50,988 nt of DNA from Escherichia phage EC167. Made by a program: the position numbers and the translations under genes. Under the pieces are notes generated by a model. That model made no database searches. It saw only the letters and a program-made list of their open reading frames with translations, and was not told where the DNA came from. The stretch is from sequence record ON185587.1; one strand, written 5' to 3'. Below are positions 6,920-46,087 of the stretch, piece by piece. Every line of letters begins with the position of its first letter. The stretch's first letter is position 1.

Positions 6920-6940
6920 GCTTTAACAAAAAGTGCTATC
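6920..6940 (-). promoter_or_regulatory. conserved intergenic motif, inverted relative to downstream capsid gene
   Basis: Plus strand reads GCTTTAACAAAAAGTGCTATC; also reads as TTGACG-16-TATCAT on the plus strand. Confidence 0.4.
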
Positions 6941-8744: not shown

Positions 8745-9112
8745 ATTACAATGAGATTGCAAGAATGGCTACGGCTGGGATTAACTTTTTCAGCGACGCT
8801 AACGGTATGTTTAAGTGCATCACGCAGCAGGGCGGAGTTGAGATTATCGGAGGAGAGGAAGTTACCAAGCCGGAGATTTCAGTGATGATAAAGGGGCTTG
8901 TTAGATCTCCGAGGACTAGAGAGGTTGACGGTGAAACAATCCGAGTAACCGACAAGTTGGGGATATTCACCAATGAAACTGAGATCAAAAATGGTTATCA
9001 GATTGAAATTGATGGCCAACGTTATGTTGTCGTTGAAGCAAGACCAGTCAGGCAGACTAACATCACGGCAGCTTATCGTCCGATATTAAGGAGGATTGCT
9101 GTGCATGGCTAA
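8732..9112 (+). CDS. head-tail joining protein
   Basis: 126 aa, overlaps upstream gene, AGGAG RBS. Confidence 0.45.
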
Positions 9113-9548
9113 AAACTACACGATAAGGGAATTTCACGGCAACATTGATGCGTGGATAAACGCCGTTGATAGTGGACTAAAAGATTGCGTGGAATTGTTC
9201 GCCGAAAAAGTACACACAGATTTGGTTAAGCGTTCTCCGGTAGATACTGGTCGTTACCGTGGAAACTGGCAGGTAACAGCAAATAAGCCGCCATTGTATG
9301 CGCTTAATCAGTACGATAAGCACGGAGACAAAACGATCGCGGAAGGCAAGCGCGCCATATACGCGATTTTACGAGGTGGCGGCGCAGTAAGAGCCATTTA
9401 TTTTTCTAACATGCTTATTTATGCTAACGCGCTTGAGTACGGTCATTCAAAACAAGCGCCAGCGGGTGTGCTTGGGATTGTAGCGGTTAAGTTGAGATCT
9501 TATATGGCTGAAGCAATAAAAGAGTCGAGGGCTAAAAATGCACTATGA
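9105..9548 (+). CDS. tail completion / neck protein
   Basis: AAGGAGG RBS; start GTG 9101 or ATG 9105. Confidence 0.45.
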   Translation: MAKNYTIREFHGNIDAWINAVDSGLKDCVELFAEKVHTDLVKRSPVDTGRYRGNWQVTANKPPLYALNQYDKHGDKTIAEGKRAIYAILRGGGAVRAIYFSNMLIYANALEYGHSKQAPAGVLGIVAVKLRSYMAEAIKESRAKNAL

Positions 9549-9936
9549 ATTAATGCTATCGGCGCGCAAGGCGCTGGCGACTGAATACGAAAGCAGATTC
9601 ATGATCGCTTATGAAAACGTAGAGTTTACGCCACCTGGTGACGGTTCGCCGTGGTTGAAGTTTGACTATGCCGAAGTTGACACAGAATACTTGTCATTGG
9701 ATCGCAAATGCGTTTCTTATATCGGAATGATTCAGGTTGGTATTGTGTTTGCACCAGGTTACGGAACTGACAGGCCGCGTGTTCTCGCTAAAGAGATTGC
9801 GCAATTCTTTTACGATGGTAAAATGTTGGAGCACGGGTATATATATGAGGGTGCAAGAGTTCACAAACCGCTCAAGAGTGAAAGCGGCTGGATTCTCCCA
9901 ATAAGGTTTTATGTTAGAATTGAAACAAAGGAGTAA
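9538..9936 (+). CDS. tail terminator-like protein
   Basis: 132 aa, overlaps upstream gene; position before major tail gene. Confidence 0.4.
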   Translation: MHYELMLSARKALATEYESRFMIAYENVEFTPPGDGSPWLKFDYAEVDTEYLSLDRKCVSYIGMIQVGIVFAPGYGTDRPRVLAKEIAQFFYDGKMLEHGYIYEGARVHKPLKSESGWILPIRFYVRIETKE

Positions 9937-9941
9937 AAATT

Positions 9942-10604
9942 ATGCATTTACCAAATGGATCGCAAATTTTCGTTGAGAGCAATCGCGGAAGCGAAATCCA
10001 AGCAACAGCAGTGTCAAACGCCAAAGATCCTGTTTTCACTGTTGCATCTGGCGGCACTGCGTACAAGAAAGGTGATTATGTGATCATCACTGCGTCTTCT
10101 TGGGGTAAGCTGATTGATCGTGTTATGCGTGTAAAGGCTAACGGTGAAGAAACAAGCGTGACTCTTGAAGGTGTAGATACTACTGATCCGAACGTTTTCC
10201 CGACTGGCGGTACTGCATCTTTTGCCAAAATTGATGCATGGACTGAGATCCCTTGCGTTCAAGATTTGTCGCAGGACGGCGGCGAACAGCAATACTACAC
10301 TTATCAGTGTTTGGCAGACGATCAGGAACAGCAGTTACCTACCTATAAGAGCGCCGTTTCTCTTACCTACACTTTTGCGCACGAATACGATAACGCGATC
10401 TATCCGTTACTTCGTGCAGCAGATGAATCCGGCGCTGTAACGGCGCTTCGTATGTATGTACCAAAAGCAAAAGAGATGCGTTGCTGGGCTGGCGTCCTTT
10501 CGTTCAACGAGATCCCACAGACCACGGTTAACGAAATGGAGACTGTTTCCCTTTCTGTATCCCTGAAAGGTCGATTCACCTTCCTACCTTCTCAAGTAAC
10601 ATAA
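9942..10604 (+). CDS. major tail protein
   Basis: 220 aa, strong RBS AAAGGAG, followed by a strong terminator and then the chaperone/tape-measure genes. Confidence 0.6.
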   Translation: MHLPNGSQIFVESNRGSEIQATAVSNAKDPVFTVASGGTAYKKGDYVIITASSWGKLIDRVMRVKANGEETSVTLEGVDTTDPNVFPTGGTASFAKIDAWTEIPCVQDLSQDGGEQQYYTYQCLADDQEQQLPTYKSAVSLTYTFAHEYDNAIYPLLRAADESGAVTALRMYVPKAKEMRCWAGVLSFNEIPQTTVNEMETVSLSVSLKGRFTFLPSQVT

Positions 10605-10608
10605 TAAC

Positions 10609-10633
10609 AAGGGGCGTTGCGCCCCTTTTTTTG
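10609..10633 (+). terminator. intrinsic terminator after major tail gene
   Basis: GGGGCG-TTGC-GCCCC followed by TTTTTTTTG. Confidence 0.7.
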
Positions 10634-10670
10634 TTACTGTACAATCATGCTACACGATTCATAATCAATT

Positions 10671-10691
10671 CTTTTAACAAAAAGTGCTATC
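10671..10691 (-). promoter_or_regulatory. conserved intergenic motif, inverted, directly upstream of chaperone RBS
   Basis: Plus strand reads CTTTTAACAAAAAGTGCTATC then AAGGAG RBS. Confidence 0.4.
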
Positions 10692-10703
10692 AAGGAGAAA
10701 AAA

Positions 10704-11021
10704 ATGTCAAAAATGAAATTGACTCTTGGGCCGCTTCCTGACTTTAAATTACCAGTGAAATTTGCAATGCCTAACGGAGAAGATCAAACAATTGTATTTA
10801 CGGTTCGTCATCGCAAAACAAGTGAGATTCACGAGCGATACACTTCGGACAATCCAATGAGCGATGTTGAAATGATCACCTTCCTTGCTTCCGGTTGGAA
10901 TCTTGATGATGAATTTAACGAAGAAAATATTAAACAGCTTCTTGATTATTACCCAGCAACAGCAATTGGGTTAACTAGCGCATATATGAAAGCGCTTGCG
11001 GGGCAGCGAGTAAAAAACTAA
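10704..11021 (+). CDS. tail assembly chaperone (G-like)
   Basis: 105 aa ORF immediately upstream of tape measure; ends just after an A-AAA-AAC slippery heptamer. Confidence 0.7.
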   Translation: MSKMKLTLGPLPDFKLPVKFAMPNGEDQTIVFTVRHRKTSEIHERYTSDNPMSDVEMITFLASGWNLDDEFNEENIKQLLDYYPATAIGLTSAYMKALAGQRVKN

Positions 11022-30567: not shown

Positions 30568-30986
30568 TGGCTATAACTGATAAAGGCGATTATCTTGAGT
30601 TTTACGAAAGGGATCCAACCGACACGAGAAGGGAAGTTAATCACCAGATAGATAGTTTTCAGTGGTTGACTTATGCTCATCCTTATTTGCTGGCGTGGCA
30701 TACGGTAAACGAGAATGAGAAGTCTAAAGCAACGGCGATGATTGATCAGCAGTCCGGCTTGGTTAAGGGAGTAAGCGATTTCATCATCCTGATTGGTTTA
30801 AACGGAAAATACCCCTTTGCAGCGATTGAGATCAAACGAGTGAATAAATCAGGCAAGGGGAAAGCATCACCAGTCAGCGATGAACAAAAGGCTTTTTTGC
30901 GTCGAGTTCGCAGCTTAGGAGGATTCGCTGCGGTCGCCTACGGATTTAATCAGTTTAAGTTGGCTATTGAATACATGCTTAAATAG
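30567..30986 (+). CDS. VRR-NUC domain nuclease
   Basis: 139 aa; PD-(D/E)XK-like GVSDFIIL...AIEIK motif; overlaps helicase stop. Confidence 0.55.
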   Translation: MAITDKGDYLEFYERDPTDTRREVNHQIDSFQWLTYAHPYLLAWHTVNENEKSKATAMIDQQSGLVKGVSDFIILIGLNGKYPFAAIEIKRVNKSGKGKASPVSDEQKAFLRRVRSLGGFAAVAYGFNQFKLAIEYMLK

Positions 30987-31002
30987 CACTTTTTGTTAAA
31001 AC
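30982..31002 (+). promoter_or_regulatory. conserved intergenic motif + GC dyad + CATAAT upstream of dam
   Basis: AATAGCACTTTTTGTTAAAAC, dyad GGCGCGATGGATTGCGCC, CATAATT; TAG stop of upstream gene inside motif. Confidence 0.5.
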
Positions 31003-33022: not shown

Positions 33023-33116
33023 GGATAGTTATCATGTGGCGCTTGTTTGTTCTACCGTTACCCGTTATCATCGCTGTTACAGTTATGTACCATATAGTGA
33101 TGAGATAGGTAGCAGA

Positions 33117-34232
33117 ATGAAAAATGTAAAAATTACAGATGAGCAATTCAAGATCGAACGGGCGGCAGGTAAGACATATAAACAGATCGCTCAAGAGTAC
33201 GGAATGAATGTGAGAAGCGTCGAGCGTCGCGCGGCGCGTCTTGCAAAGCAAGGACAGTTATCGACCATCGGAGCGCCTGGTTTTGGTGTTCATGGTGAGT
33301 CAGTAATGACTGACAAAGAAGGAAATATAATCCTCAAGTGGACCAAAACCAGCAAGGATAAAGAGCAATTAGAGGCACTGATGCGCGCAGCTATGGAGGC
33401 GTTTAGCGAGGAAGTGCCGCGATTAGATCCAGTTCCATTGCAGGAGCGTAACTATAATGAAACGCTTTCATTGTATCCGATCTTTGACATGCACTTAGGC
33501 GCTATGGCCCATAAGCACGAATGCGGAGAAAATTGGGATACTGCTACGGCGGAGCGCGTTATGAATAACTTTATCGACTATGCTTTGATGTGCGCACCGG
33601 ACAGCGAAAAGGCTGTTATCCTGATTGGTGGCGATATGCTGCATAGCGACGGCCTGGAGGCTGTGACACCTGCAAGCGGTCACGTACTTGATCAAGATAG
33701 CCGATATGCAAAATTGGTTTACGTTGCAATCCGTGCAATGCGTCGCGCAATTAATAAAATGCTGTTAAAGCATAAACATGTTGAGGTCCAGATCGTAGAG
33801 GGCAATCACGACCAATCAGGAATGATTTGGCTACGCGCAGCGATGGCGGCAGCATATGAGAACGAGCCGCGCGTTTACGTTGATGTTTCTCCTCGCGTTG
33901 TTCACCACACGCAATACGGAAAAACTTTCCTTGCGTACCATCACGGGCACACAGTGCGTAAACCGGAGGCTTTGCTAATGATGTGCGCGTCAGATTGGCG
34001 GGAGGACTTCGGAAACTCAAAAACTATGTATGCGCACGTAGGGCACTGGCATCACCAGACCGTGACGGAAACGTCGCTTGGCATCGTTGAGGTGCATAGC
34101 ACCCTGGCGGCAAAAGACGCATACGCCGCGCGAGGTGGCTGGAGATCTCGACGCCGTGCAGCGGTTATCATTTACGACAAAGAGCATGGAGAAGTGGGGC
34201 GATTTGTTCACTATCCAGAAATGATGAATTGA
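33117..34232 (+). CDS. metallophosphoesterase (calcineurin-like) with N-terminal HTH-like segment
   Basis: DMHLG, GGDMLH, GNHD, HHGH, GHWHH metal-binding motifs; start 33117 preferred over ORF-track 33036. Confidence 0.55.
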   Translation: MKNVKITDEQFKIERAAGKTYKQIAQEYGMNVRSVERRAARLAKQGQLSTIGAPGFGVHGESVMTDKEGNIILKWTKTSKDKEQLEALMRAAMEAFSEEVPRLDPVPLQERNYNETLSLYPIFDMHLGAMAHKHECGENWDTATAERVMNNFIDYALMCAPDSEKAVILIGGDMLHSDGLEAVTPASGHVLDQDSRYAKLVYVAIRAMRRAINKMLLKHKHVEVQIVEGNHDQSGMIWLRAAMAAAYENEPRVYVDVSPRVVHHTQYGKTFLAYHHGHTVRKPEALLMMCASDWREDFGNSKTMYAHVGHWHHQTVTETSLGIVEVHSTLAAKDAYAARGGWRSRRRAAVIIYDKEHGEVGRFVHYPEMMN

Positions 34233-34277
34233 TGAATTTTTATTTAAATCAATGACAAATTAAATCAAAAACTTGCA

Positions 34278-34308
34278 AAGGGGCGGCGTTTGTCGCCTCT
34301 TTTTTTTG
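34278..34308 (+). terminator. intrinsic terminator before lysis cassette
   Basis: AGGGGCG-8 nt loop-CGCCTCT followed by T8. Confidence 0.65.
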
Positions 34309-34377
34309 TTTAATTTTTTACCATGTGCGTTTATCATGCGGTCAATATATTGACTTTAATTAATATGGAGAATAAAA

Positions 34378-34593
34378 ATGAAAGATTTTATTAACGCAGC
34401 TACCGCCGGATCTGGCGGTTCATCTATCGCAAGCGCCGCTACAGGGCAGTTAACCATTGCTATTGCCAGCTTTGTTTTAATGGCTGCATTCGGTGCATGG
34501 GGCGCTTACCTTCGCTGGCGTGATAGTAAAAAATTCCACGAGGCAATCGAAAAAGGTGATATTCAAAAAGCTATTGAGATCAGGGGCAAGTAA
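34378..34593 (+). CDS. holin (pinholin-like, two TMD)
   Basis: 71 aa; Gly/Ala/Ser-rich weakly hydrophobic TMD1 and hydrophobic TMD2, charged C-terminus; directly precedes SAR endolysin. Confidence 0.6.
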
Positions 34594-37937: not shown

Positions 37938-37958
37938 GTTTTGTCAAAAAGTGCTATT
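37938..37958 (-). promoter_or_regulatory. conserved intergenic motif variant (TTGACA form)
   Basis: Minus strand: AATAGCACTTTTTGACAAAAC + dyad GGGCCG..CGGCCC. Confidence 0.5.
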
Positions 37959-38175
37959 TGATCCGCTCTATTGCAACCAGAAGTCGATCAGGCTGGCGGT
38001 CGCTGTAGCATTCTCCTGTAATCCCATCCTTAAACGTAAAGTAAAGCGCCTTATGATATGAAAAACCAATCAGCCAACCTACCGCAGTTTTTTTGATGGG
38101 CCTGACTATATCGCCAGGCTTGAAGGTTTTTGTTGCTGAATTAGTAACCTTATAGCGATATTCAGTCTTGATCAT
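37954..38175 (-). CDS. hypothetical protein
   Basis: 73 aa from ATG overlapping HNH stop (ATGATCAAGACTGA); stop TAG inside motif. Confidence 0.4.
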   Translation of the reverse strand: MIKTEYRYKVTNSATKTFKPGDIVRPIKKTAVGWLIGFSYHKALYFTFKDGITGECYSDRQPDRLLVAIERIK

Positions 38176-38683
38176 AAGGCTTCTCGCTTCCGTGGTTTTC
38201 GTGGAATCCGTACTTTTTCCAAATAGCATCTCTTGATGATACAGCGCTATCAATTGATGCATGATAACCACCAGAAATACACCTGCCATCAACAGTTACT
38301 TGTACGCACCATTTAGACACCCTCTTATTCAACATCACGCCAGTATAACCAGATTTATTTGTCGATCTCCTTGTGTGGTTTTGTGAGTTTTGTTTTCTTG
38401 TGACAAGCCGAAGGTTTTCGATTCTATTGTCATCTCTTATGTGATTCACGTGATCTATCTCCATTCCTTTTGGTATTGTTTTTCCATGCATCCACCAAAC
38501 AATCCAATGCGCCGGATACTCTCTGCCACCAATACCTATACGTCTATATCCGTTTTTAGTTATATAACCTGCCTCATCGCCAATTTTTGCCCGTCTTCCT
38601 GATGGGCTTTTCCATAATAGACGACCATTTTCATATATAAATAAATTTAGAAGTACTTGCCTTGAAATTCCGCTATTGCACAT
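38162..38683 (-). CDS. HNH homing endonuclease with AP2 domain
   Basis: HNH motif (HWIVWWMHG..IDHVNH..DNR..NLR) and AP2-like SGYTGV segment. Confidence 0.7.
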   Translation of the reverse strand: MCNSGISRQVLLNLFIYENGRLLWKSPSGRRAKIGDEAGYITKNGYRRIGIGGREYPAHWIVWWMHGKTIPKGMEIDHVNHIRDDNRIENLRLVTRKQNSQNHTRRSTNKSGYTGVMLNKRVSKWCVQVTVDGRCISGGYHASIDSAVSSRDAIWKKYGFHENHGSEKPYDQD

Positions 38684-38874
38684 TTAAATCCAACCTCGCA
38701 TCTTTCAAGAGTCCATTGCTCACCTTGAGCATCAACAACGTAACCAGCTACAGCGCCTAAAACCCTTCCCATAATTATCTCATAGCGTTTACCTTCCTTA
38801 AAATGCTGACCTGGCTTTACGCTGTTCATGTGGTGGTAAACTTTTGTGCATTTTATTGTTCTCTTCTTTGTCAT
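38647..38874 (-). CDS. small protein, paralogue family member A
   Basis: 75 aa; RBS AAGGAG; N-terminal K-C-x-x-x-Y...KPG motif shared with 40884 and 44932 genes. Confidence 0.5.
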   Translation of the reverse strand: MTKKRTIKCTKVYHHMNSVKPGQHFKEGKRYEIIMGRVLGAVAGYVVDAQGEQWTLERCEVGFKCAIAEFQGKYF

Positions 38875-38929
38875 CGTTTATTTCTCCTTTCGTTTCGGTG
38901 AAGTGATTATGCAAGGTTTTTACATCTGG

Positions 38930-38950
38930 CTTTTAACAAAAAGTGCTATT
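38930..38950 (-). promoter_or_regulatory. conserved intergenic motif (minus orientation)
   Basis: Minus strand: AATAGCACTTTTTGTTAAAAG ... GCATAAT. Confidence 0.5.
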
Positions 38951-39632
38951 TTGAGTTTGACTCAAAGACGGCGCGAGCAAAGCCGCGCGGAGTGAGTGAG
39001 CGTAGTTGCTTTGTTCTGGCAGACTTACCGCCTAAAAACTTCCAACCCCAAAAGAACATTACGCCCTCATCATTGGATAACGGCTTGCGTTCGGGTTCTG
39101 TAAATCCGTTGCCGCACCAGATAGCAGTCCTTTTTGTGTAGCCATCCTTTATCGGCATCTTGGGGTGAAAAGATCCATCGGATTCGTCCAGGTAGTTACC
39201 AAAATCTCGAGGATTGAAATAAAAATCAGGCTTTCGCCATAGCGTTGATAGTCGGCCTACAGGATTCTCAGCCATCCAGGGGACACCGAAATGATTCCCG
39301 ACAGTTTCAACCATGATTGCATTTTTGAGCGCAACCTGAATATCATCATCGCTTCGCACGTGCTTGATTCCTGATTGGGCAAACATGGTGCAGTCTGGAA
39401 ATCCAAATACAATATCTGGTTTTGGAATACCAATCTTACTGATTCTTTCAATGAAATTTTCATCAATCCACATATTTACATAATGCAGATTTTCATGTTT
39501 CATCTTGATGAAATATTCTCCGTGATTGCCTTCATCAGCGTTAAAGCAATAGCATTGATAGCCAGCCTTCGCATATTCAAGCAGCATGATTCCAGATCCA
39601 TCAAACATTGAGTAAGCAACTTTATTTCCCAT
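38946..39632 (-). CDS. minimal cytosine-C5 methyltransferase-like protein
   Basis: ~228 aa; motif I FDGSG, motif IV-like GFPDCTMF (canonical GFPCQ), ETV for ENV, C-terminal RSLTPRGFARAV resembling the LTPRE motif; almost no target-recognition domain; start at MGNK preferred. Confidence 0.45.
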   Translation of the reverse strand: MGNKVAYSMFDGSGIMLLEYAKAGYQCYCFNADEGNHGEYFIKMKHENLHYVNMWIDENFIERISKIGIPKPDIVFGFPDCTMFAQSGIKHVRSDDDIQVALKNAIMVETVGNHFGVPWMAENPVGRLSTLWRKPDFYFNPRDFGNYLDESDGSFHPKMPIKDGYTKRTAIWCGNGFTEPERKPLSNDEGVMFFWGWKFLGGKSARTKQLRSLTPRGFARAVFESNSK

Positions 39633-40149
39633 GATTTTTATGATACCCCAATTCATTCTCGGCTTTACGTTTTGCGGCAACAGCATCTCCAAAACTGGAA
39701 AAACAACCTATATAAATCCTACTTCCTCGCTTTCCGCCTCCAACCCTTACAACCCATTTGCCATGTTTATTTTTATGCACACATGGTATGCCACTTTTAT
39801 TGTTTTTCTGCTTTGATGTGTTTCGCATATTTCCTTTGTGATCTTTTAACTCAAAGTTTATTGCTCTGTTATCAGTCGTAATGTGATTTACGTGATCAAC
39901 CTCCTTTCCTTCAGGTATAGGCCCATAGTGCATTTCATAGCATATTCTATGAATTTTCAGGTTATAACGTTTTCCGTTTACAGTAAGTGCAGTTTCTAAA
40001 TATCTGCCACCACTACCCAAAGAGCCAACCTCATTACCAGCATTGCAAGCATTCCATTGTTTAGCTCTTGATTGGTGAATATCTTTTCTTTCTTTCCAGA
40101 ACAGCTTTCCAGTTTCTGGATTGTATGTAAAGTAATCATGCCAATTCAT
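39622..40149 (-). CDS. HNH homing endonuclease with AP2 domain
   Basis: HNH motif (HRICYEMHYG..VDHVNH..DNR..N) and AP2-like SGIPCV segment. Confidence 0.7.
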   Translation of the reverse strand: MNWHDYFTYNPETGKLFWKERKDIHQSRAKQWNACNAGNEVGSLGSGGRYLETALTVNGKRYNLKIHRICYEMHYGPIPEGKEVDHVNHITTDNRAINFELKDHKGNMRNTSKQKNNKSGIPCVHKNKHGKWVVRVGGGKRGSRIYIGCFSSFGDAVAAKRKAENELGYHKNHGK

Positions 40150-40157
40150 TCATTACC

Positions 40158-40382
40158 TCAAAACGGAAAACAGCGCGGACAACTAGGATCGAAATCGCAT
40201 CCACAATCATTAACAATCATATTTGGATCTGCAAATATTGCGCTTGATTCAAGATCCATATCCATATCACCTAAAGCCTCATCAAGAGTCTTAATTTTAT
40301 ATGCCACTTCAAGCGCCGCCTCTTTATTTAGTCCGGCATCTTCTGCCATTTGAAGGCGCTCAAAAAAACCGTCTTGACTCAT
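40158..40382 (-). CDS. hypothetical protein with C-terminal Cys cluster
   Basis: 74 aa; acidic; CGCDFDPSCPRC at C-terminus. Confidence 0.4.
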   Translation of the reverse strand: MSQDGFFERLQMAEDAGLNKEAALEVAYKIKTLDEALGDMDMDLESSAIFADPNMIVNDCGCDFDPSCPRCFPF

Positions 40383-40493
40383 CAGATCATCACCTTAAAC
40401 ATAATATAAATTAATGCCACACATGACGCCGCAAGAGTGACTACAAGCATAAAAACAACAACAGAAAGAGCAATATAAGTAATTTTATTCATC
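40383..40493 (-). CDS. putative 36-aa hydrophobic membrane peptide
   Basis: Not in ORF track; MNKITYIALSVVVFMLVVTLAASCVALIYIMFKVMI; stop overlaps next start; coordinates approximate. Confidence 0.25.
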
Positions 40494-40538
40494 GTTCATT
40501 CCTATATTTAAGGGCGCGCATTAGCGCCCATCAATTTA

Positions 40539-40775
40539 TTATGCAGCTTTCCAATTTTGAATATAGAATGAGTATTCATTCAGCATTTCTTTTAATCCAG
40601 CCTCGCTGAATTTACGCAACTTACCGCCAGGATGAATACCGACAGTGTAACCGCCCTTACCTTCTGTGATGGTTAACTGGTTGATTCCGCTAGATTTATC
40701 AAGTCGAACAATAACGCGGTGATGTGCCGTAACAGTCGCCATAATATTTTCAACTTTGATTGATTTTGCAGTCAT
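40539..40775 (-). CDS. hypothetical protein
   Basis: 78 aa from internal ATG with GAGGA RBS (ORF-track start 40847). Confidence 0.4.
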   Translation of the reverse strand: MTAKSIKVENIMATVTAHHRVIVRLDKSSGINQLTITEGKGGYTVGIHPGGKLRKFSEAGLKEMLNEYSFYIQNWKAA

Positions 40776-40883
40776 TCTATATTCCTCAGTTAAAGTAAGA
40801 GTGTCGTGGCGCTCTTTTTCCGTCGCCGCCGTAATGGTCATTTGCAACCGCCACCATCCAAGCGTTTTTGAAAATAAATAGCC

Positions 40884-41096
40884 TCATTTCTTATTTTTCA
40901 GCTTAAATTTATGACCTGGAACACCAGCGCCAATATACCCATCGTTGTATTCCATTAAATAAAGGTGAAGACCATTATCTGAAATTACATGAGGATCTTC
41001 TTTGAGATTTCCCATTAGTGGATATTCTTTTCCGCGCGTGAATCTCCATGTTGAGTTATAAGTTTCTACGCATTTAAGTTTTAATTGCTTTGCCAT
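40884..41096 (-). CDS. small protein, paralogue family member B
   Basis: 70 aa; shares N-terminal KLKCVETY...F.RG..Y pattern with 38647 and 44932 genes. Confidence 0.45.
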   Translation of the reverse strand: MAKQLKLKCVETYNSTWRFTRGKEYPLMGNLKEDPHVISDNGLHLYLMEYNDGYIGAGVPGHKFKLKNKK

Positions 41097-41377
41097 TATG
41101 CGATCCCAGTTACGTTAAAACTTACAGCCTTTGTTGCGCTAAATACATAAGAATCAACAGCGCCGCCAAATACACGAATTTTACACTGGCCGTACTGCGC
41201 ATTCATATTTCGCCAAACCGTTCTATTAGAGCAGAATGCGCTACCAGTCTTAATAAGCGTATCCATCTCTTTTCTTAGATCGCGATAGTCAAGCCAGAAT
41301 CTAAAGGCGCGCTGTTTAATTCGCGCCGCCTTGATTTTTTCTCTTGCGCTATTGAAATCATTCTTTTCGTATGCCAT
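41096..41377 (-). CDS. hypothetical protein
   Basis: 93 aa; GGAG RBS; overlaps downstream start. Confidence 0.4.
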   Translation of the reverse strand: MAYEKNDFNSAREKIKAARIKQRAFRFWLDYRDLRKEMDTLIKTGSAFCSNRTVWRNMNAQYGQCKIRVFGGAVDSYVFSATKAVSFNVTGIA

Positions 41378-41514
41378 TAAATGATCTCCATGTATGTTTC
41401 AAAGCCATTTAACTTGAACAGGCCGTTTTCACATTTGCGCACGTTCCAAGTTAGCCCTGGCGGCCCTGCAAAATGCCTCCGCCAGATCCAAATCATTTTC
41501 GGTAATCACCGCCA

Positions 41515-41787
41515 TTACTTCTTGATCTCCTCACTGATAAATTTCAGCACCTGACGCAAGAAAACCTCGTTGCTGATAGTCGCTGGCAATTCTTCTTTCA
41601 CTTCTTGCGGCAGATAGATATTGCCGTGCCAGGTCAAGCAATCGTAGTTGATACGATAAGAGCAAAGCAACTCGCAATCGTTATCTCCTTCCCAAATGCA
41701 GAGTTGCAGAACATCGCCAAAATCTTCAACAGTCAGATCCAGACCGTGACGCTTAGCGAAATTGAAAGTGGTTTTGCTGATGTTCAT
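41515..41787 (-). CDS. hypothetical protein, first gene of minus-strand early operon
   Basis: 90 aa; AGGAG RBS; motif-type promoter upstream. Confidence 0.45.
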   Translation of the reverse strand: MNISKTTFNFAKRHGLDLTVEDFGDVLQLCIWEGDNDCELLCSYRINYDCLTWHGNIYLPQEVKEELPATISNEVFLRQVLKFISEEIKK

Positions 41788-42458
41788 TGCTATCTCCTGA
41801 TCGGTTCGTTTTGATGTGTGTAATGTACCCGATCAGGTGGCCTGAGTTTTAACAAAAAGTGCTATTTGACGGTTAGCGCCAGGATTGCGATCGAAATAAT
41901 CATAAGTAATCATTCGTAATCAAATCACGTCAAAATGATGATTGCCTTTGCAAATTTGATGAGAAAAGCAATCACGTTTAATCATTGGTTGCAGGGGAGA
42001 TAGTGAAACCTTCCCCTCTCGCCTCACTTTTTTGCCTGGCTGTCAGTGGTTGTTATGTTCCGTTCCTGCGTGTTCTTTTGTTGACCTTCCGCAAAATACG
42101 ATAACAAAAAATAACAAACAATACCTATATAATACATTGAAAAATAAGGATTATTTATTTATATGTATCTATATATTCTCTTTTGTTATCTTGGTTATTG
42201 TGGTATTTGGTGGGGGTATATAGTTTTTGTGTATCTGTATGTGTGTATGGGTATGTAGGGGTATATATATCTATATGGCGCTTTCCGCGAGAAAACTTCG
42301 ATAACAAGCAATGATAACATTGATTTATAAGGAAAAATAACGCCTATATTGTTATTGTGCCACCATATAAAATTGATAAAACACGCGGGAACAAGAAAAA
42401 ACAGTTGACACATTAAATAGCATTATTGATAATGCCCACACCTAACAACCAGGAGGCA
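41788..42458. promoter_or_regulatory. AT-rich non-coding control region 2 (divergent promoters, iterons, dyads)
   Basis: 671 bp without credible ORF; TAATCAT repeats phased at 10 bp (41897, 41907, 41917) plus further copies; hairpin + U-tract at about 42003-42045; GT-rich repeats homologous to region 1; GGGAACAAGAAAAA box; TTGACA-17-GATAAT promoter for early genes. Confidence 0.6.
41846..41866 (-). promoter_or_regulatory. conserved intergenic motif (minus orientation)
   Basis: Minus strand: AATAGCACTTTTTGTTAAAAC upstream of 41787 gene. Confidence 0.5.
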
Positions 42459-42926
42459 GAAATGAGCGAGCAATCATTCACTGACACGCTGCGCCGTGCC
42501 GCTATTATGCTGGCTAATGGCGAGGAAGAGACGATCAAGATTCCTGACGCGTATTTGCAGGTCCACATGTTCGGCAAGAAGTCGGCAAGCAATCCGGCGG
42601 CCTACATTCGCCAGATCATGAGTCGAGTGCCAGAAGTCGCCGAGCGGGGGCGCGTATCCGTTACCCGTGACGTTTACGGGCCGGAAGATGAAAACTTCGG
42701 TAGCACTTTCTACGAGGTGCGGATTGTTGAAGGCCGTCGCAAGGTTTACAACAAAGAGGCACTGGAAAGGGCAGTGCGCCAGGCTAAGCGCAAGGTTGCA
42801 GAGGCGATCATTGATATGTCACCAAACCTGGCAAACTATGCGCCGGAAGAGTATGAAACGTTATCAAAGGCCGTCGCTGACTTTCACGCGATGATCAAAA
42901 AAACTTTCCTGGAGGATGAACAATGA
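42459..42926 (+). CDS. hypothetical early protein (first gene of plus-strand early operon)
   Basis: 155 aa from ATG 42459 (RBS CAGGAGG); immediately downstream of TTGACA-17-GATAAT promoter. Confidence 0.5.
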   Translation, partial: EMSEQSFTDTLRRAAIMLANGEEETIKIPDAYLQVHMFGKKSASNPAAYIRQIMSRVPEVAERGRVSVTRDVYGPEDENFGSTFYEVRIVEGRRKVYNKEALERAVRQAKRKVAEAIIDMSPNLANYAPEEYETLSKAVADFHAMIKKTFLEDEQ

Positions 42927-43194
42927 AAAGGCGTTAATCGGTGTTTTGGTGGCAATGGCATTCCTGACCGGGTGCAAAGAAGATGGCGCGCATGTTGGCA
43001 ATGTGCAGATGGCTAACCCTGGCGATGACTACAGCGTAAGGGAGCTATTCACCGCTGACGGTTGCACCGTTTACCGATTCTATGACGGTCGCACTGTTTA
43101 CTTCACCAACTGCAAGGGCGCTACTAGCTGGGAAGTGTCGAAAAGCAATGGCAAAGGCACGAAGACAGAACATATGACCGTCGAGGCAAAATAG
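42916..43194 (+). CDS. small lipoprotein
   Basis: 92 aa; signal peptide with lipobox (AFLTG-C); four Cys in mature part. Confidence 0.5.
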   Translation: MNNEKALIGVLVAMAFLTGCKEDGAHVGNVQMANPGDDYSVRELFTADGCTVYRFYDGRTVYFTNCKGATSWEVSKSNGKGTKTEHMTVEAK

Positions 43195-43210
43195 CACTTT
43201 TTGTTAAAAC
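43190..43210 (+). promoter_or_regulatory. conserved intergenic motif + dyad GCCAGGTGCAAAGCCTGGC + CATAAT
   Basis: Canonical copy; TAG stop of lipoprotein gene inside motif. Confidence 0.5.
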
Positions 43211-43266
43211 GCCAGGTGCAAAGCCTGGCATAATAGCCTCATCGAAACGAGATTGAGGAAACAAAA

Positions 43267-43452
43267 ATGGCACGTCGCATCACCAAAGACCTTAAAGTCC
43301 TGAACAAAGAAAACGTAGTTAAAATCCTGGTTATCTGGGGCTACAGCGAAGAAACAGCAAAGCAGAAGGTAGAGGTAGGTTATGATCTGGCTGTAAAAGC
43401 AATGCCAAACGACGACGCCAAAGGCATTGCAAACTATGTAGCGTTCTTTTAA
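43267..43452 (+). CDS. hypothetical protein
   Basis: 61 aa, GAGGAA RBS. Confidence 0.4.
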   Translation: MARRITKDLKVLNKENVVKILVIWGYSEETAKQKVEVGYDLAVKAMPNDDAKGIANYVAFF

Positions 43453-43467
43453 TTAGCAGGTGAATAA

Positions 43468-43653
43468 ATGAAAACGAAATTAGTCCATAAGTCAGAAATC
43501 AAGATCGGCGATACTGTGATTCACAACGGAGAGCTTAGAACGGTAGGCAAAGAGTCAATAAGCCACGATGAATTTATGGGGATCTTGTTGTTCGGTGACT
43601 CTTATCATCTTGGTTACAAGATGGTTGAGCTTGTGGAAGAGGTAAAATTCTAA
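43468..43653 (+). CDS. hypothetical protein
   Basis: 61 aa, RBS. Confidence 0.4.
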   Translation: MKTKLVHKSEIKIGDTVIHNGELRTVGKESISHDEFMGILLFGDSYHLGYKMVELVEEVKF

Positions 43654-43673
43654 ATAGCACTTTTTGTTAAAAC
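43653..43673 (+). promoter_or_regulatory. conserved intergenic motif + GCATAAT
   Basis: Canonical motif; no clear dyad in this copy. Confidence 0.5.
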
Positions 43674-43751
43674 TCGAAAGCGATAACCAGGCATAATAAA
43701 TCACATAGGGCGGCACGGCGTCGCCCACAAAACCAATCAGGAGAAAGCACC

Positions 43752-44633
43752 ATGTTAAAACTTACTGACATTAAATTCCCGATCACCTTCGAATCTCGCG
43801 GCGTTGGTCATTTCATGTTTACCGACGAGAAGACATGCACTAAGTTTAACGAATACGGAAGTCCAAACGCTTCAACAATGGAGATTGAACACTTCATTGA
43901 AGCGCACAATAAACAATACAACTCACTCAGAGACTACGGTTACGCAATGCCAGGCTACACCTGTTTCCACTACAAGCCATATAAAGGCCAGGTGTTGCCA
44001 GTGCGATCACCGGAACGCGCAGAGATTCCGATGGTCGAGATGAAAACATGCGACTATAAAAAGCTGTGGTGCTTAAGTCTGGACAATATCAAGTATCCGA
44101 TCGTATTCCGCGCGGATGGTAACTCAACGATTCGCTATACGTCACCAGACAACGGCGTTTATAGCGACGGTCAGAAATCAGAGCTTAAGGTTGATTTCTT
44201 TGTCAACGGTCACAATAGACACAATCCGCACAACGAAAAAGATAAAGTGTATTACGTGGAAGATATTACAAAACACTTGTTTGGCGACGCTCCAATTGGC
44301 GGCGGTAAGCCATATTTTGCGCAGGCGATAGATAACGCTGCCAGACGCATTGGTGAGCAGATTCACAGTCAAACAATCAAGGCGTCTGTTCTTGTTGCGC
44401 AAGATGTCGTAAGTAAGAGCGCCATTGAAGACATGCCAGTTGCCGCCACGTTAAAAGGCGTTCAGCTTGATGATGGTGTGTGGTTTGAAGTAACGGCTAC
44501 ACCAAAGACGATCGAGATTCATGATGACGTTGTTATTCTTCTGCTTCACTACGGCGGCTATAAAAACCGGACTGTTGCGGGTGAGATCAGCATCAAGCGC
44601 GGAACGATGGTTAAGTGGAAGGTGAAGATTTGA
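43752..44633 (+). CDS. hypothetical early protein with internal tandem domain duplication
   Basis: 293 aa; residues ~4-80 and ~110-190 share pattern (IKFPITFESRG / IKYPIVFRADG); RBS AGGAGAAAG. Confidence 0.45.
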   Translation: MLKLTDIKFPITFESRGVGHFMFTDEKTCTKFNEYGSPNASTMEIEHFIEAHNKQYNSLRDYGYAMPGYTCFHYKPYKGQVLPVRSPERAEIPMVEMKTCDYKKLWCLSLDNIKYPIVFRADGNSTIRYTSPDNGVYSDGQKSELKVDFFVNGHNRHNPHNEKDKVYYVEDITKHLFGDAPIGGGKPYFAQAIDNAARRIGEQIHSQTIKASVLVAQDVVSKSAIEDMPVAATLKGVQLDDGVWFEVTATPKTIEIHDDVVILLLHYGGYKNRTVAGEISIKRGTMVKWKVKI

Positions 44634-44857
44634 GTTTGCTCACTGCGGCGCACGTCGCCGCATGGATCGGATTGTTTGCCTACCTGTTTAGCTTTTATTG
44701 AGGTGAGAGATGGCTACCTGGATTTTGCTGATTCTTATGATTGATGGCGGCGTTGACCATATCGAAATGAATAGCCAGCAATCTTGCATTGAGGCACGAG
44801 AGCAGATCAAGAACAACAACAGGTTTTATGCGTACACTCACACGCTATGCATTAAGA

Positions 44858-44878
44858 AATAGCACTTTTTGTTAAAGC
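44858..44878 (+). promoter_or_regulatory. conserved intergenic motif + TATAAT inside dyad
   Basis: AATAGCACTTTTTGTTAAAGC then GGCCAGGTATAATGGCC. Confidence 0.5.
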
Positions 44879-44931
44879 TCAAATGTGGGGCCAGGTATAA
44901 TGGCCTCACTTTCAACGAAGGAGATAAAACG

Positions 44932-45150
44932 ATGTACATTAAAAAGAAGATGAAATGCGTTTCCGTTAACTATGCTTGCTCTGGCATGTTCAAGCCTGGC
45001 GAAATCTATACGGCGCAAAAACTGAAATCATCAACCGGATCTTTTTACGTGAGCAATAGTAAGGGTCATCGCATGTTCCTGAACGGCGGCGAAGGCACTA
45101 AGGTTATGGCACACGCTATGGTAATGGCGGAATTTGAGGAAGTGAAATAA
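44932..45150 (+). CDS. small protein, paralogue family member C
   Basis: 72 aa from ATG 44932 (AAGGAG RBS); N-terminal KKKMKCVSVNY...FKPGEIY and C-terminal AEF shared with member A. Confidence 0.5.
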   Translation: MYIKKKMKCVSVNYACSGMFKPGEIYTAQKLKSSTGSFYVSNSKGHRMFLNGGEGTKVMAHAMVMAEFEEVK

Positions 45151-45152
45151 TC

Positions 45153-45362
45153 ATGGACAAGAACAAAACAGCAAAATATAAATTCACCGACGACTACGGA
45201 GACACCATCGACGTTTATCAGCGTGGAAATAAGATCTTTATAGATGGCACTTTCGAATATGGCCGGATGCCAGACTTTCGGGGAATACTTTCGGCAGATA
45301 GCGCGCGACGCATGGCGAACGTGTTAAATAAACTGGCGGCAAAGATTGAGGCGATGCAATGA
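45153..45362 (+). CDS. hypothetical protein
   Basis: 69 aa. Confidence 0.4.
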   Translation: MDKNKTAKYKFTDDYGDTIDVYQRGNKIFIDGTFEYGRMPDFRGILSADSARRMANVLNKLAAKIEAMQ

Positions 45363-46084
45363 AAAAATACACTTTCGAACTGTGGGGCAAGAAGTACGAA
45401 TTAATGACCAGTAAGCCGATTGTTATCGTTGACATGGACGGCACGCTATCGGACGGATCGCATCGCTTGCACTTGCTGCCAACTGAAAACTTGCACCTTA
45501 CCGAAAGCTGGTCCAAGTTCAACAAGGCCGCCGCCAAAGATGCGCCGATTAGTAGCACGATTGCTGTTATTAACGGATTGTGGGTATCTGGATTTGCAAT
45601 CGTTATCCTGACCGGACGCAGCGACGAAGTTCGCCAGGAAACGAAACACTGGCTTAATGATAATGGAGTCAAGCACGACGCGTTAATCATGCGCCGCAAG
45701 GAAGATAACAGAAAAGACACGATCATCAAAGAGGAAGTCTTGCGAGCTATCGGACTGGAAAACATTGTGTGCGCTTTTGACGATTCGCCGAACGTGGTTA
45801 AGCACTTCCGCAGCTTGGGTATTACAACCTATCAGGTCACGGAATACGACAAGCCACACGCTCACATACAATCTCACGGCGTGGAATCAATCAAGATAAC
45901 GAAGCGCGCCCGATTCGTTGGCAGCAAAGATATCCTTGTCAATGCCAGCTTTACCAGAGGAATAGCCTATGACGTTGTTTCTTATCATGACAAGAGTTTA
46001 TGGTTCATGATGATTCTGGATGCGCCTGGTCATTCAATCATAGTGACGGCGATTTTGTTAATGCGTAATAGCACTTTTTGTTAA
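45359..46084 (+). CDS. HAD-superfamily phosphatase (nucleotidase / polynucleotide 3'-phosphatase-like)
   Basis: DxDGT motif I (IVIVDMDGTLSD), downstream T/S and K/D motifs of HAD fold; overlaps upstream stop. Confidence 0.55.
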   Translation: MKKYTFELWGKKYELMTSKPIVIVDMDGTLSDGSHRLHLLPTENLHLTESWSKFNKAAAKDAPISSTIAVINGLWVSGFAIVILTGRSDEVRQETKHWLNDNGVKHDALIMRRKEDNRKDTIIKEEVLRAIGLENIVCAFDDSPNVVKHFRSLGITTYQVTEYDKPHAHIQSHGVESIKITKRARFVGSKDILVNASFTRGIAYDVVSYHDKSLWFMMILDAPGHSIIVTAILLMRNSTFC

Positions 46085-46087
46085 AAC
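46067..46087 (+). promoter_or_regulatory. conserved intergenic motif + dyad enclosing TATAGT
   Basis: AATAGCACTTTTTGTTAAAAC; GGGCTTGCGGTATAGTAAGCCC; overlaps 3' end of phosphatase gene. Confidence 0.5.

What the first reader, a model, noticed from the sequence alone, without database searches (positions are those of the whole stretch)
38647..45150. Three-member paralogous family of ~70-aa proteins with conserved N-terminal K-C-x-x-x-Y...F-K-P-G motif
Genes 38647-38874 (-), 40884-41096 (-) and 44932-45150 (+) align as MTKKRTIKCTKVYHHMNSVKPGQHF / MAKQLKLKCVETYNSTWRFTRGKEY / MYIKKKMKCVSVNYACSGMFKPGEIY, and two share a C-terminal AEF segment. They are spread over both early operons, and two have their own motif-type promoter. 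Repeated diversified small early proteins are typical of host-takeover or anti-defence functions.
Basis: seen in the sequence. Interest (0 to 1): 0.55.

Follow-up and report, generated by a model that had tools for sequence, protein, structure and literature searches.

The report
Diverged SH3-like mini-protein paralogues in a T1-like phage
Three small genes of this T1-like coliphage are distant copies of one roughly 65-residue SH3-like beta-barrel module, whose only studied structural relative is Gp54 of phage Bas11, a protein sensed by the bacterial immune protein CapRel; what the module does is still unknown.

Summary
The three ORFs exist exactly as given, in a Warwickvirus-like Drexlerviridae genome. 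They have good or coupled translation starts and are under purifying selection (dN/dS 0-0.24).

Raw pairwise similarity is marginal (BLASTP E about 0.04, none for A-B). Family profiles link all three: hhalign scores rank 3rd to 5th of 406 control pairs, and column shuffles give z = 6.5-9.3.

- **Bridge between families:** the N-terminal domain of T1p07-like relatives of gene A matches B and C at 91-93% probability.
- **Pfam:** relatives score below threshold against DUF7244, a family in the SH3 clan.

In A, the counterpart of F-K-P-G is F25-K-E-G28, not V-K-P-G. The family also has more than three traces here: a fourth copy is fused to the polynucleotide kinase and broken by a 1-nt deletion. 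Separately, a 3' stub of the Gp54/Gp19 gene, a structural relative only, remains.

Function is untested. A dispensable, host-directed binding protein is the most likely reading.

The parts
38647..38874 (-). Gene A, 75 aa. It is a single module corresponding to the C-terminal domain of the two-module T1p07 / KP36 gp71 / SECphi27 Gp13 proteins (phrog_2684).
40884..41096 (-). Gene B, 70 aa, a stand-alone module. It appears translationally coupled to the upstream gene 41096-41377 (TAATG overlap).
   Evidence: Orthologues at 81-100% identity plus 36-45% relatives, in 89 phage records in all. hhalign to A 46% and to C 40%, and to the T1p07 N-terminal domain 92.8%, E 4e-7. dN/dS 0.23. No structure model was made for B.
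44932..45150 (+). Gene C, 72 aa, a stand-alone module (= SECphi27 Gp31, using the internal ATG).
45884..46068 (+). Fourth copy of the module, fused to the C-terminus of the polynucleotide kinase/phosphatase (gene 45359-46084). In this window a 1-nt deletion after 45996 breaks it, so the last 23 residues are read out of frame.
38932..38949 (-). Copy of the 18-nt repeated intergenic motif ATAGCACTTTTTGTTAAA upstream of gene A; a presumed promoter element.
   Evidence: 17 copies in the window, 0.13 expected.
44859..44876 (+). Copy of the same 18-nt motif upstream of gene C.
41377..41457 (-). 3' remnant (last 26 codons plus stop) of the Gp19(SECphi27)/Gp54(Bas11) gene. This gene is a structural relative of the module. 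Its 5' part and five downstream-numbered genes are deleted here.
   Evidence: phmmer with SECphi27 Gp19 gives E 7.8e-15 to residues 39-65. The translation ...GLTWNVRKCENGLFKLNGFETYMEII* is. blastn shows window 41459/41445 joining SECphi27 positions 8932 and 10733, so 1.8 kb is absent.

Best explanation
**Shown here.** A, B and C are real, conserved protein-coding genes. They are three diverged copies of one roughly 60-70-residue all-beta module.
- **Sequence signature:** basic N-terminus, then K-C-(V/T) in strand 1; a variable loop; an F-x-x-G-x-x-Y turn and strand 2; (Y/H)-V-x-(D/N)-x-x-G-x-x-h-x-L in strands 3-4; and a C-terminal aromatic/F-(E/K) strand.
- **Fold:** the module models as a small SH3-like barrel. 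Its closest solved structure by a wide margin is Gp54 of phage Bas11.
- **Spread:** the module has multiplied in Drexlerviridae. It occurs as stand-alone genes, as a tandem pair (T1p07-like proteins), as a C-terminal tail on the polynucleotide kinase, and as 4-6 repeats in proteins from phage-sized metagenomic contigs.
- **Known relatives:** it is a remote, below-threshold relative of Pfam DUF7244 in the SH3 clan.

**Inferred, not shown.** Each copy is a dispensable cytoplasmic binding protein made from the promoter-rich small-gene arms of the genome. The conserved core keeps the barrel folded. The variable strand 1-2 loop and the face around the F-x-x-G turn would set partner specificity, so each paralogue would bind a different host (or phage) macromolecule.

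Host-defence or other host proteins are the most likely partners. Such proteins could also become triggers for host sensors, as Gp54 is for CapRelSJ46.
For: **Coding and conservation.** Shine-Dalgarno sites or coupled starts. dN/dS 0-0.24. Intact orthologues in 89-823 phage records.

**Homology.**
- hhalign places the A/B/C triangle 3rd to 5th of 406 control pairs; column shuffles give z 6.5-9.3.
- Each family's profile finds members of the other two among its top out-of-family hits in a 6966-sequence local database; B-type proteins are the first out-of-family hits of the A profile, and an A-type protein is the first of the B profile.
- phrog_10169 weakly matches all three.
- The N-terminal domain of two-module A relatives matches B at 92.8% and C at 91%, with shuffle z 13.7-15.6.
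- A profile of the merged alignment, searched against 1.84 billion proteins, recovers all three families. It also finds repeat proteins made of the same module: P0065, P0069, P0071, P0072, P0081, P0087.

**Link to DUF7244.** B-like relatives score 12-21 bits against a 27-bit cutoff. A local T1p14-like family matches the N-terminal domain at 93% and C at 39%. BFVD hits include proteins labelled DUF7244.

**Dispensability and turnover.**
- B is absent from SECphi27.
- C carries an in-frame stop in L008.
- The kinase tail is frameshifted here.
- The Gp19 block is deleted here.
- Gp54 of Bas11 is non-essential, not toxic on its own, and binds a host protein directly through a face that includes G24/I25 of its F-K-K-G-I turn (PMC11578894).
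Against: - No functional data exist for any A, B or C family member.
- Sequence profiles do not link A, B or C to the Gp54 family (hhalign 2% or less; no PDB sequence hit). That link rests on predicted structure only.
- Both models were built from the same merged A+B+C alignment, so they are not independent. B was never modelled.
- A, B and C are basic (pI 9.4-9.5) whereas Gp54 is acidic (pI 5.2). One copy is fused to a nucleic-acid end-processing enzyme. Both facts fit a nucleic-acid ligand as well as a protein ligand.
- Individual hhalign probabilities among A, B and C are only 30-46%.
- 'Early' expression is assumed from position, not measured.
Confidence: 0.6

Rival explanations
1. The modules are small basic nucleic-acid-binding barrels, in the manner of Sso7d, KOW or Tudor-type SH3-like folds. 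They would bind DNA, RNA or tRNA rather than proteins. The kinase-fused copy would tether the polynucleotide kinase/phosphatase to its substrate.
Against: The closest structure, Gp54, is acidic and binds a protein (PMC11578894). No recognisable nucleic-acid-binding motif was found. The KOW/Sso7d-type matches score no better than generic SH3 matches.
Confidence: 0.2
2. They are auxiliary lysis or cell-wall-binding SH3 proteins, as proposed for the DUF7244 stand-alone SH3 protein next to the T1-like lysis cassette.
For: Remote profile similarity to DUF7244 / T1p14-like proteins. That role has been proposed for DUF7244 (PMC13164509).
Against: A, B and C are not near the lysis genes. The window has only about 145 nt between the exonuclease gene (33036-34232) and the holin gene (34378-34593). 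None has a signal peptide or a hydrophobic N-terminus (sequences). None reaches the DUF7244 threshold. The lysis role of DUF7244 is itself only a hypothesis based on gene position.
Confidence: 0.05
3. The resemblance is chance or convergence: a lysine-rich N-terminus plus a common beta-turn motif in unrelated small proteins.
For: Single-sequence statistics are marginal. Within-window phmmer E-values are 0.75-5. Repeat proteins such as LGFP, WD40 and PQQ also give weak profile hits, which shows that the strand 3-4 pattern is compositionally common.
Against: The profile-profile triangle ranks 3rd to 5th of 406 pairs, with alignments 45-61 columns long. Shuffle z values are 6.5-15.6. The N-terminal bridging family scores 91-93%. 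The merged alignment yields confident models (pLDDT 83-85) with one and the same top PDB hit.
Confidence: 0.07
4. One or more of the ORFs is not a real gene.
For: They are short ORFs annotated only as 'hypothetical'. B lacks a clear Shine-Dalgarno sequence.
Against: dN/dS is well below 1. ORFs stay intact down to 36-45% protein identity across genera. The Shine-Dalgarno sites of A and C are strong, and B overlaps the preceding stop codon.
Confidence: 0.03

Closest known systems
Gp54 of Escherichia phage Bas11 (PDB 9AXB; complex 9ERV; SECphi27 homologue Gp19; phrog_7421)
   Different: No detectable sequence-profile similarity. It is acidic rather than basic. It has V where A, B and C have the invariant Cys. 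In this window the Gp54/Gp19 gene survives only as a 3' stub. Close Gp54 homologues already fail to trigger CapRelSJ46, so A, B and C should not be assumed to be triggers.
Pfam DUF7244 (PF23896, SH3 clan): the T1p14 / KanT1 stand-alone SH3 protein beside the Drexlerviridae lysis cassette
   Same: The same K-V-(K/R)-C-(T/I) ... F-x-V-G-x-x-Y ... I-x-D-G-x-G signature. Profile links run through the T1p07 N-terminal domain (93%) and to C (39%). B-like relatives give below-threshold Pfam hits.
   Different: A, B and C do not reach the Pfam threshold. They lie in the small-gene arms, not next to holin and endolysin. The window has no DUF7244 gene at the lysis cassette.
T1p07 / Klebsiella phage KP36 gp71 / SECphi27 Gp13 (phrog_2684)
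   Same: A is an orthologue of the C-terminal domain, E 1.9e-22. It sits in the same position, between the cytosine methylase and the helicase-like gene.
   Different: Those proteins are 118-146 aa with a second, N-terminal module of the B/C type. The window's A, like those of BEK12A and mar001J1, is the C-terminal module alone, and an HNH homing-endonuclease gene overlaps its 3' end.
Canonical SH3 domains (e.g. RecD SH3 in 5LD2, FeoA, eukaryotic SH3)
   Different: Similarity is much weaker than to Gp54. No SH3 sequence family is matched (the Pfam SH3_9 hit at E 0.14 is only for the unrelated neighbouring gene D). The Gp54 barrel has a sixth strand in place of the 3-10 helix (PMC11578894).

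Membership tests
Pfam DUF7244 (PF23896) | Whole-protein score at or above the gathering cutoff of 27 bits | tested here: not met
   A, B and C give no DUF7244 hit even at E<=10. B-like relatives score 12.4-20.8 bits.
Pfam DUF7244 (PF23896) | Superfamily-level (clan-level) relatedness by profile-profile comparison | tested here: inconclusive
   A local T1p14-like family matches the T1p07 N-terminal domain at 93%, C at 39%, B at 5% and A at under 1%. The N-terminal domain in turn matches B at 92.8% and C at 91%. The link is transitive and was not tested against the Pfam HMM itself.
Pfam DUF7244 (PF23896) | Position between the DNA-repair exonuclease gene and the holin gene of the lysis cassette (PMC13164509) | tested here: not met
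   A, B and C lie at 38.6, 40.9 and 44.9 kb. The exonuclease-holin gap at 34232-34378 holds no ORF.
Gp54(Bas11)/Gp19(SECphi27) family | Detectable sequence homology to Gp54 | tested here: not met
   hhalign of the Gp54 family against A 2%, C 0.8%, B 0.1%. The PDB sequence searches do not return 9AXB.
Gp54(Bas11)/Gp19(SECphi27) family | Gp54-type small beta-barrel fold | tested here: met
Gp54(Bas11)/Gp19(SECphi27) family | Direct binding and activation of CapRelSJ46 | not testable with these tools
   This needs co-expression toxicity or binding assays. The paper shows that homologues differing at only 3 residues do not activate it (PMC11578894).
T1p07-like proteins (phrog_2684) | Significant match to the family profile | tested here: met
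   A matches at E 1.9e-22, profile positions 56-126 of 127. B and C do not match.
T1p07-like proteins (phrog_2684) | Two-module architecture of about 120-146 aa | tested here: not met
   A is 75 aa. Only about 70 nt separate it from the methylase gene.
Canonical SH3 domain | SH3-like barrel topology | tested here: met
Canonical SH3 domain | Proline-rich-peptide binding pocket residues (ALYDY / WW / SNY motifs) | not tested
   No residue-level structural alignment was available. No such motifs are visible in the sequences.

The most novel reading that the evidence does not exclude
The module is a fast-evolving counter-defence scaffold of T1-like phages. Each paralogue (A, B, C, the Gp54/Gp19 type and the kinase-fused copy) would neutralise or evade a different host immune protein. 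Host sensors such as CapRel would have learned to recognise the scaffold in turn. The kinase-fused copy might direct the 3'-phosphatase/kinase to tRNA ends damaged by tRNA-targeting toxins.
Probability: 0.15. Interest if true: 0.75.

Novelty: new member of a known kind. Interest (0 to 1): 0.42.

Why it matters

The evidence here places it, at the level of fold, inside a larger and diversified set of SH3-like mini-proteins. That set includes DUF7244, both halves of T1p07, the A, B and C families, and a tail on the polynucleotide kinase. Two to five copies occur in each Tempevirinae locus examined.

This has three practical consequences:
- It gives a concrete list of candidates to test for counter-defence activity, or for being sensed by CapRel-like and other immune proteins.
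- It gives a framework for annotating many 'hypothetical' Drexlerviridae genes.
- It suggests the module is a reusable binding scaffold.

It does not reveal a new mechanism.

Tried and rejected
**Candidate extra members that were ruled out.**
- Gene D (37954-38175, 'KTFKPGDIV') looked like a fourth member by eye. It is unrelated by profile: hhalign under 1% to A, B and C.
- The in-frame 'LKLKCGARYNGLTFNEGDK' upstream of C is the translated promoter motif, not a degenerate copy.

**Searches with limited yield.**
- The word-indexed homology searches returned only close relatives: 18, 7 and 17 proteins. The viral-contig scan returned 7 near-identical loci. Diversity had to come from tblastn against phage genomes and from fetched loci.
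- Pfam, NCBIfam and PDB sequence searches gave nothing for A, B or C. The 'Cake' designed-propeller hits, and the LGFP, WD40, PQQ and PA14 hits, come from summing many weak repeats and were dismissed.
- The sigma-70 consensus scan found no convincing promoter at these genes, and fewer sites than in shuffled sequence. The repeated 18-nt motif is the better promoter candidate.
- The AFDB50 fold library was not available.

**Literature.** No function is reported for these families. The RAZR paper on SECphi27 concerns Gp77 (Erf-like) and is not relevant.
Full report
**Context.** The window is a complete genome of about 51 kb from a T1-like coliphage. The region around the finding is 90-96% identical to Drexlerviridae/Tempevirinae/Warwickvirus phages such as BEK12A, MikeNSara, tiwna and SECphi27. 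The finding lies in two divergent arms of small genes. The leftward arm runs from about 41.9 kb down to 36.3 kb. The rightward arm runs from about 42.4 kb onwards.

**The observation.** All three ORFs exist at the stated coordinates and translate to the quoted peptides. A and C have strong Shine-Dalgarno sequences. B starts at a TAATG overlap with the stop codon of the preceding gene.

Taken alone, the three window proteins are only marginally similar:
- BLASTP gives E=0.036 for A-C, E=0.044 for B-C (N-terminal 21 residues only), and nothing for A-B.
- Smith-Waterman against 2000 shuffles gives p=0.006, 0.039 and 0.077.
- In a six-frame phmmer search of the window, the three rank among each other's top seven hits, but at E=0.75-5.

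**Profile-level test.** I fetched early regions of ten further Drexlerviridae from several genera, together with close relatives, and built a local six-frame database of 6966 segments.

Iterated profiles of each family find members of the other two families among their top out-of-family hits. B-type proteins are the first out-of-family hits of the A profile (E 0.003). An A-type protein is the first out-of-family hit of the B profile (E 0.007). The C profile picks up A and B at E 0.05-0.09, just behind a T1p14-like protein at E 0.028.

As a control I built profiles for 29 small-protein families of this window and ran all 406 hhalign comparisons. A-B, B-C and A-C rank 3rd, 4th and 5th, with 61, 45 and 50 aligned columns. 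The two higher pairs are a shared lipoprotein signal peptide and one 25-column match. Permuting alignment columns 150 times never reached the observed scores; z = 6.7, 9.3 and 6.5.

A merged alignment of the three families has invariant C9, F25, Y31 and L56 (A numbering) and near-invariant K8, G28, V46, G51 and G62.

In A, the counterpart of F-K-P-G / F-T-R-G is F25-K-E-G28. The 'LKLKCGARYNG' peptide in frame upstream of C is just the promoter motif read as protein. Gene D (37954-38175) carries 'FKPGD' but is unrelated by profile.

**More members and a bridging family.** Homologues of A in most Drexlerviridae (T1p07, KP36 gp71, SECphi27 Gp13; phrog_2684) are 118-146 aa. The window's A corresponds to their C-terminal half only.

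The N-terminal half of those proteins ('MKLKCTSS...LYKGR...V.D..G.WF') matches the B profile at 92.8% (E 4e-7) and the C profile at 91% (E 1e-6, 56 columns). Shuffle z values are 15.6 and 13.7. T1p07-like proteins are therefore tandem pairs of the module, and they tie the A type to the B/C type.

A profile of the merged alignment, searched against 1.84 billion representative proteins, gave 50 hits at E<=1e-3. These include all three families. They also include proteins of 364-571 aa from phage-sized metagenomic contigs that consist of three to six tandem copies of the same module, for example 'KLKCTYVAKDGAIQMWYTKDKEYEVKHDDLVGFCIDDNDNDY'.

Several relatives carry a further copy as a C-terminal tail on the polynucleotide kinase/phosphatase. 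This tail matches B at 58% and A at 40% by hhalign, and the superfamily profile at E 2e-5. In the window that tail is present (45884-46068) but is broken by a single-base deletion after 45996.

Copy number in the Tempevirinae loci examined is two to five.

**Are they genes?**
- dN/dS against relatives is 0-0.24 for C (seven pairs), 0.12 for A and 0.23 for B.
- ORFs stay intact down to 36-45% identity across genera.
- Turnover is high. B is missing from SECphi27. C has an in-frame stop in one Shigella phage contig. The kinase tail is frameshifted here.

**Fold.** AlphaFold2 with the merged alignment gave confident all-beta models: A with pLDDT 82.7 and five strands, C with pLDDT 85.3 and six strands.

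9AXB was released in November 2024, and the models were made without templates.

A Foldseek search of predicted viral structures found mostly uncharacterised Drexlerviridae proteins, two of them labelled DUF7244.

**What is known about the relatives.** Gp54 of Bas11 (66 aa) is a direct trigger of the fused toxin-antitoxin CapRelSJ46.
- It is not toxic on its own and is not essential.
- Loss-of-function mutations and deletions covering it and neighbouring genes let the phage largely escape.
- G24 and I25, within its F-K-K-G-I turn, lie in the interface with CapRelSJ46.
- Homologues differing at only three residues no longer trigger.
- Its function is unknown; they suggest it might inhibit another defence system (PMC11578894).

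By sequence, the Gp54 family is not detectably related to A, B or C. In several phages, however, the Gp54-type gene sits directly beside a B-type gene. By motif, the Gp54 turn 'GIFKKGIEI' lines up with 'GMFKPGEIY' of C.

In this window the Gp54/Gp19 gene is reduced to its last 26 codons (41377-41457). A 1.8-kb deletion relative to SECphi27 removed its 5' part and the five neighbouring genes.

The second known relative is Pfam DUF7244 (SH3 clan), the stand-alone SH3 protein between the exonuclease and the holin in many T1-like phages. It has been proposed, from gene position only, to assist lysis (PMC13164509).
- A, B and C give no DUF7244 hit.
- B-like relatives score 12-21 bits against a cutoff of 27.
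- A local T1p14-like profile matches the T1p07 N-terminal domain at 93% and C at 39%.

**Mechanism.** What is shown is homology, the fold class, coding constraint, multiplicity and rapid turnover.

What is inferred is the role. The proteins would be small cytoplasmic binding proteins in which the conserved core maintains the barrel. The variable strand 1-2 loop and the surface around the F-x-x-G turn would determine the partner, with different partners for different paralogues.

Host proteins, including defence proteins, are the most likely partners. This follows from the Gp54 precedent, from dispensability, and from location in the promoter-dense small-gene arms. A and C each have a copy of the 18-nt motif that occurs 17 times in the genome.

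The main rival is nucleic-acid binding. It is suggested by pI 9.4-9.5, against 5.2 for Gp54, and by the fusion to the polynucleotide kinase. A cell-wall or lysis role is unlikely, because there is no signal sequence and the genes are not at the lysis cassette. Chance resemblance and non-coding ORFs are effectively excluded.

**Verdict.** The functional guess remains untested.

The families are new, unannotated branches of a known kind: SH3-clan stand-alone phage mini-proteins, comprising DUF7244 and the Gp54 fold. The useful new point is that the CapRel trigger Gp54 is not a structural orphan. It is one branch of a multi-copy module family in these phages, which yields testable candidates. Interest is moderate.

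Noticed in passing
window, 17 sites, e.g. 6922-6939(-), 30983-31000(+), 38932-38949(-), 41848-41865(-), 43191-43208(+), 44859-44876(+), 46068-46085(+): The 18-nt motif ATAGCACTTTTTGTTAAA occurs 17 times with up to 3 mismatches, 10 of them exact, against 0.13 expected by chance. The copies examined lie in gaps between genes, pointing towards the downstream gene, about 20 nt ahead of a TATAAT-like box. It is a likely phage-specific promoter or regulatory element that the plain sigma-70 scan does not detect.
   Followed up: partly
window 41377-41515 (-): Relative to SECphi27, 1.8 kb is missing (SECphi27 8933-10732: the 5' part of gp19, gp20-gp23 and most of gp24). This leaves a 26-codon 3' stub of the Gp19/Gp54 (CapRel-trigger family) gene, with about 15 nt of overlap at the junction. 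It resembles the deletions covering gene 54 that were seen in laboratory CapRel escape mutants of Bas11.
   Followed up: partly
window 45996/45997, within gene 45359-46084 (+): A single-base deletion relative to related phages shifts the reading frame of the last 23 codons of the polynucleotide kinase/phosphatase tail. It could be a genuine mutation or a sequencing error. The kinase/phosphatase domains upstream are unaffected.
   Followed up: partly
window 38162-38683 (-) and 39622-40149 (-): Two HNH homing-endonuclease-like genes flank the cytosine methylase gene (38946-39692). The first overlaps the 3' end of gene A by 37 nt. The short, single-module form of A was seen with an HNH gene at the same spot in BEK12A and apparently mar001J1. 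Salmonella phage SP-126 has the HNH gene there too, but with a longer A protein.
   Followed up: no
window 37954-38175 (-): Gene D (73 aa, = SECphi27 Gp12, phrog_12725) carries 'KTFKPGDIV' and gives a weak Pfam SH3_9 hit (E 0.14). It is not related to A, B or C by profile comparison. It may be another, independent small barrel protein.
   Followed up: partly
proteins P0065, P0069, P0071, P0072, P0081, P0087 (metagenomic contigs of 6-61 kb): These proteins of 364-571 aa consist of three to six tandem copies of the same module, with no Pfam annotation. They come from unnamed, mostly phage-sized contigs. The module therefore also exists as a repeat array.
   Followed up: partly
L017 (SECphi27) 9123-9530 (-), gene gp20: SECphi27 Gp20 (135 aa) has a B-type module at its N-terminus (B profile E 2.9e-9), fused to an unrelated C-terminal extension (phrog_6503). 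It lies next to the Gp54-type gene gp19. SECphi27 has no stand-alone B gene at the position B occupies in the window.
   Followed up: partly
L008 9947-10219 (+) (IMG/VR contig matching Shigella phage 2019SD1): The C orthologue is interrupted by an in-frame TGA stop and splits into two ORF fragments. This is consistent with C being dispensable.
   Followed up: no
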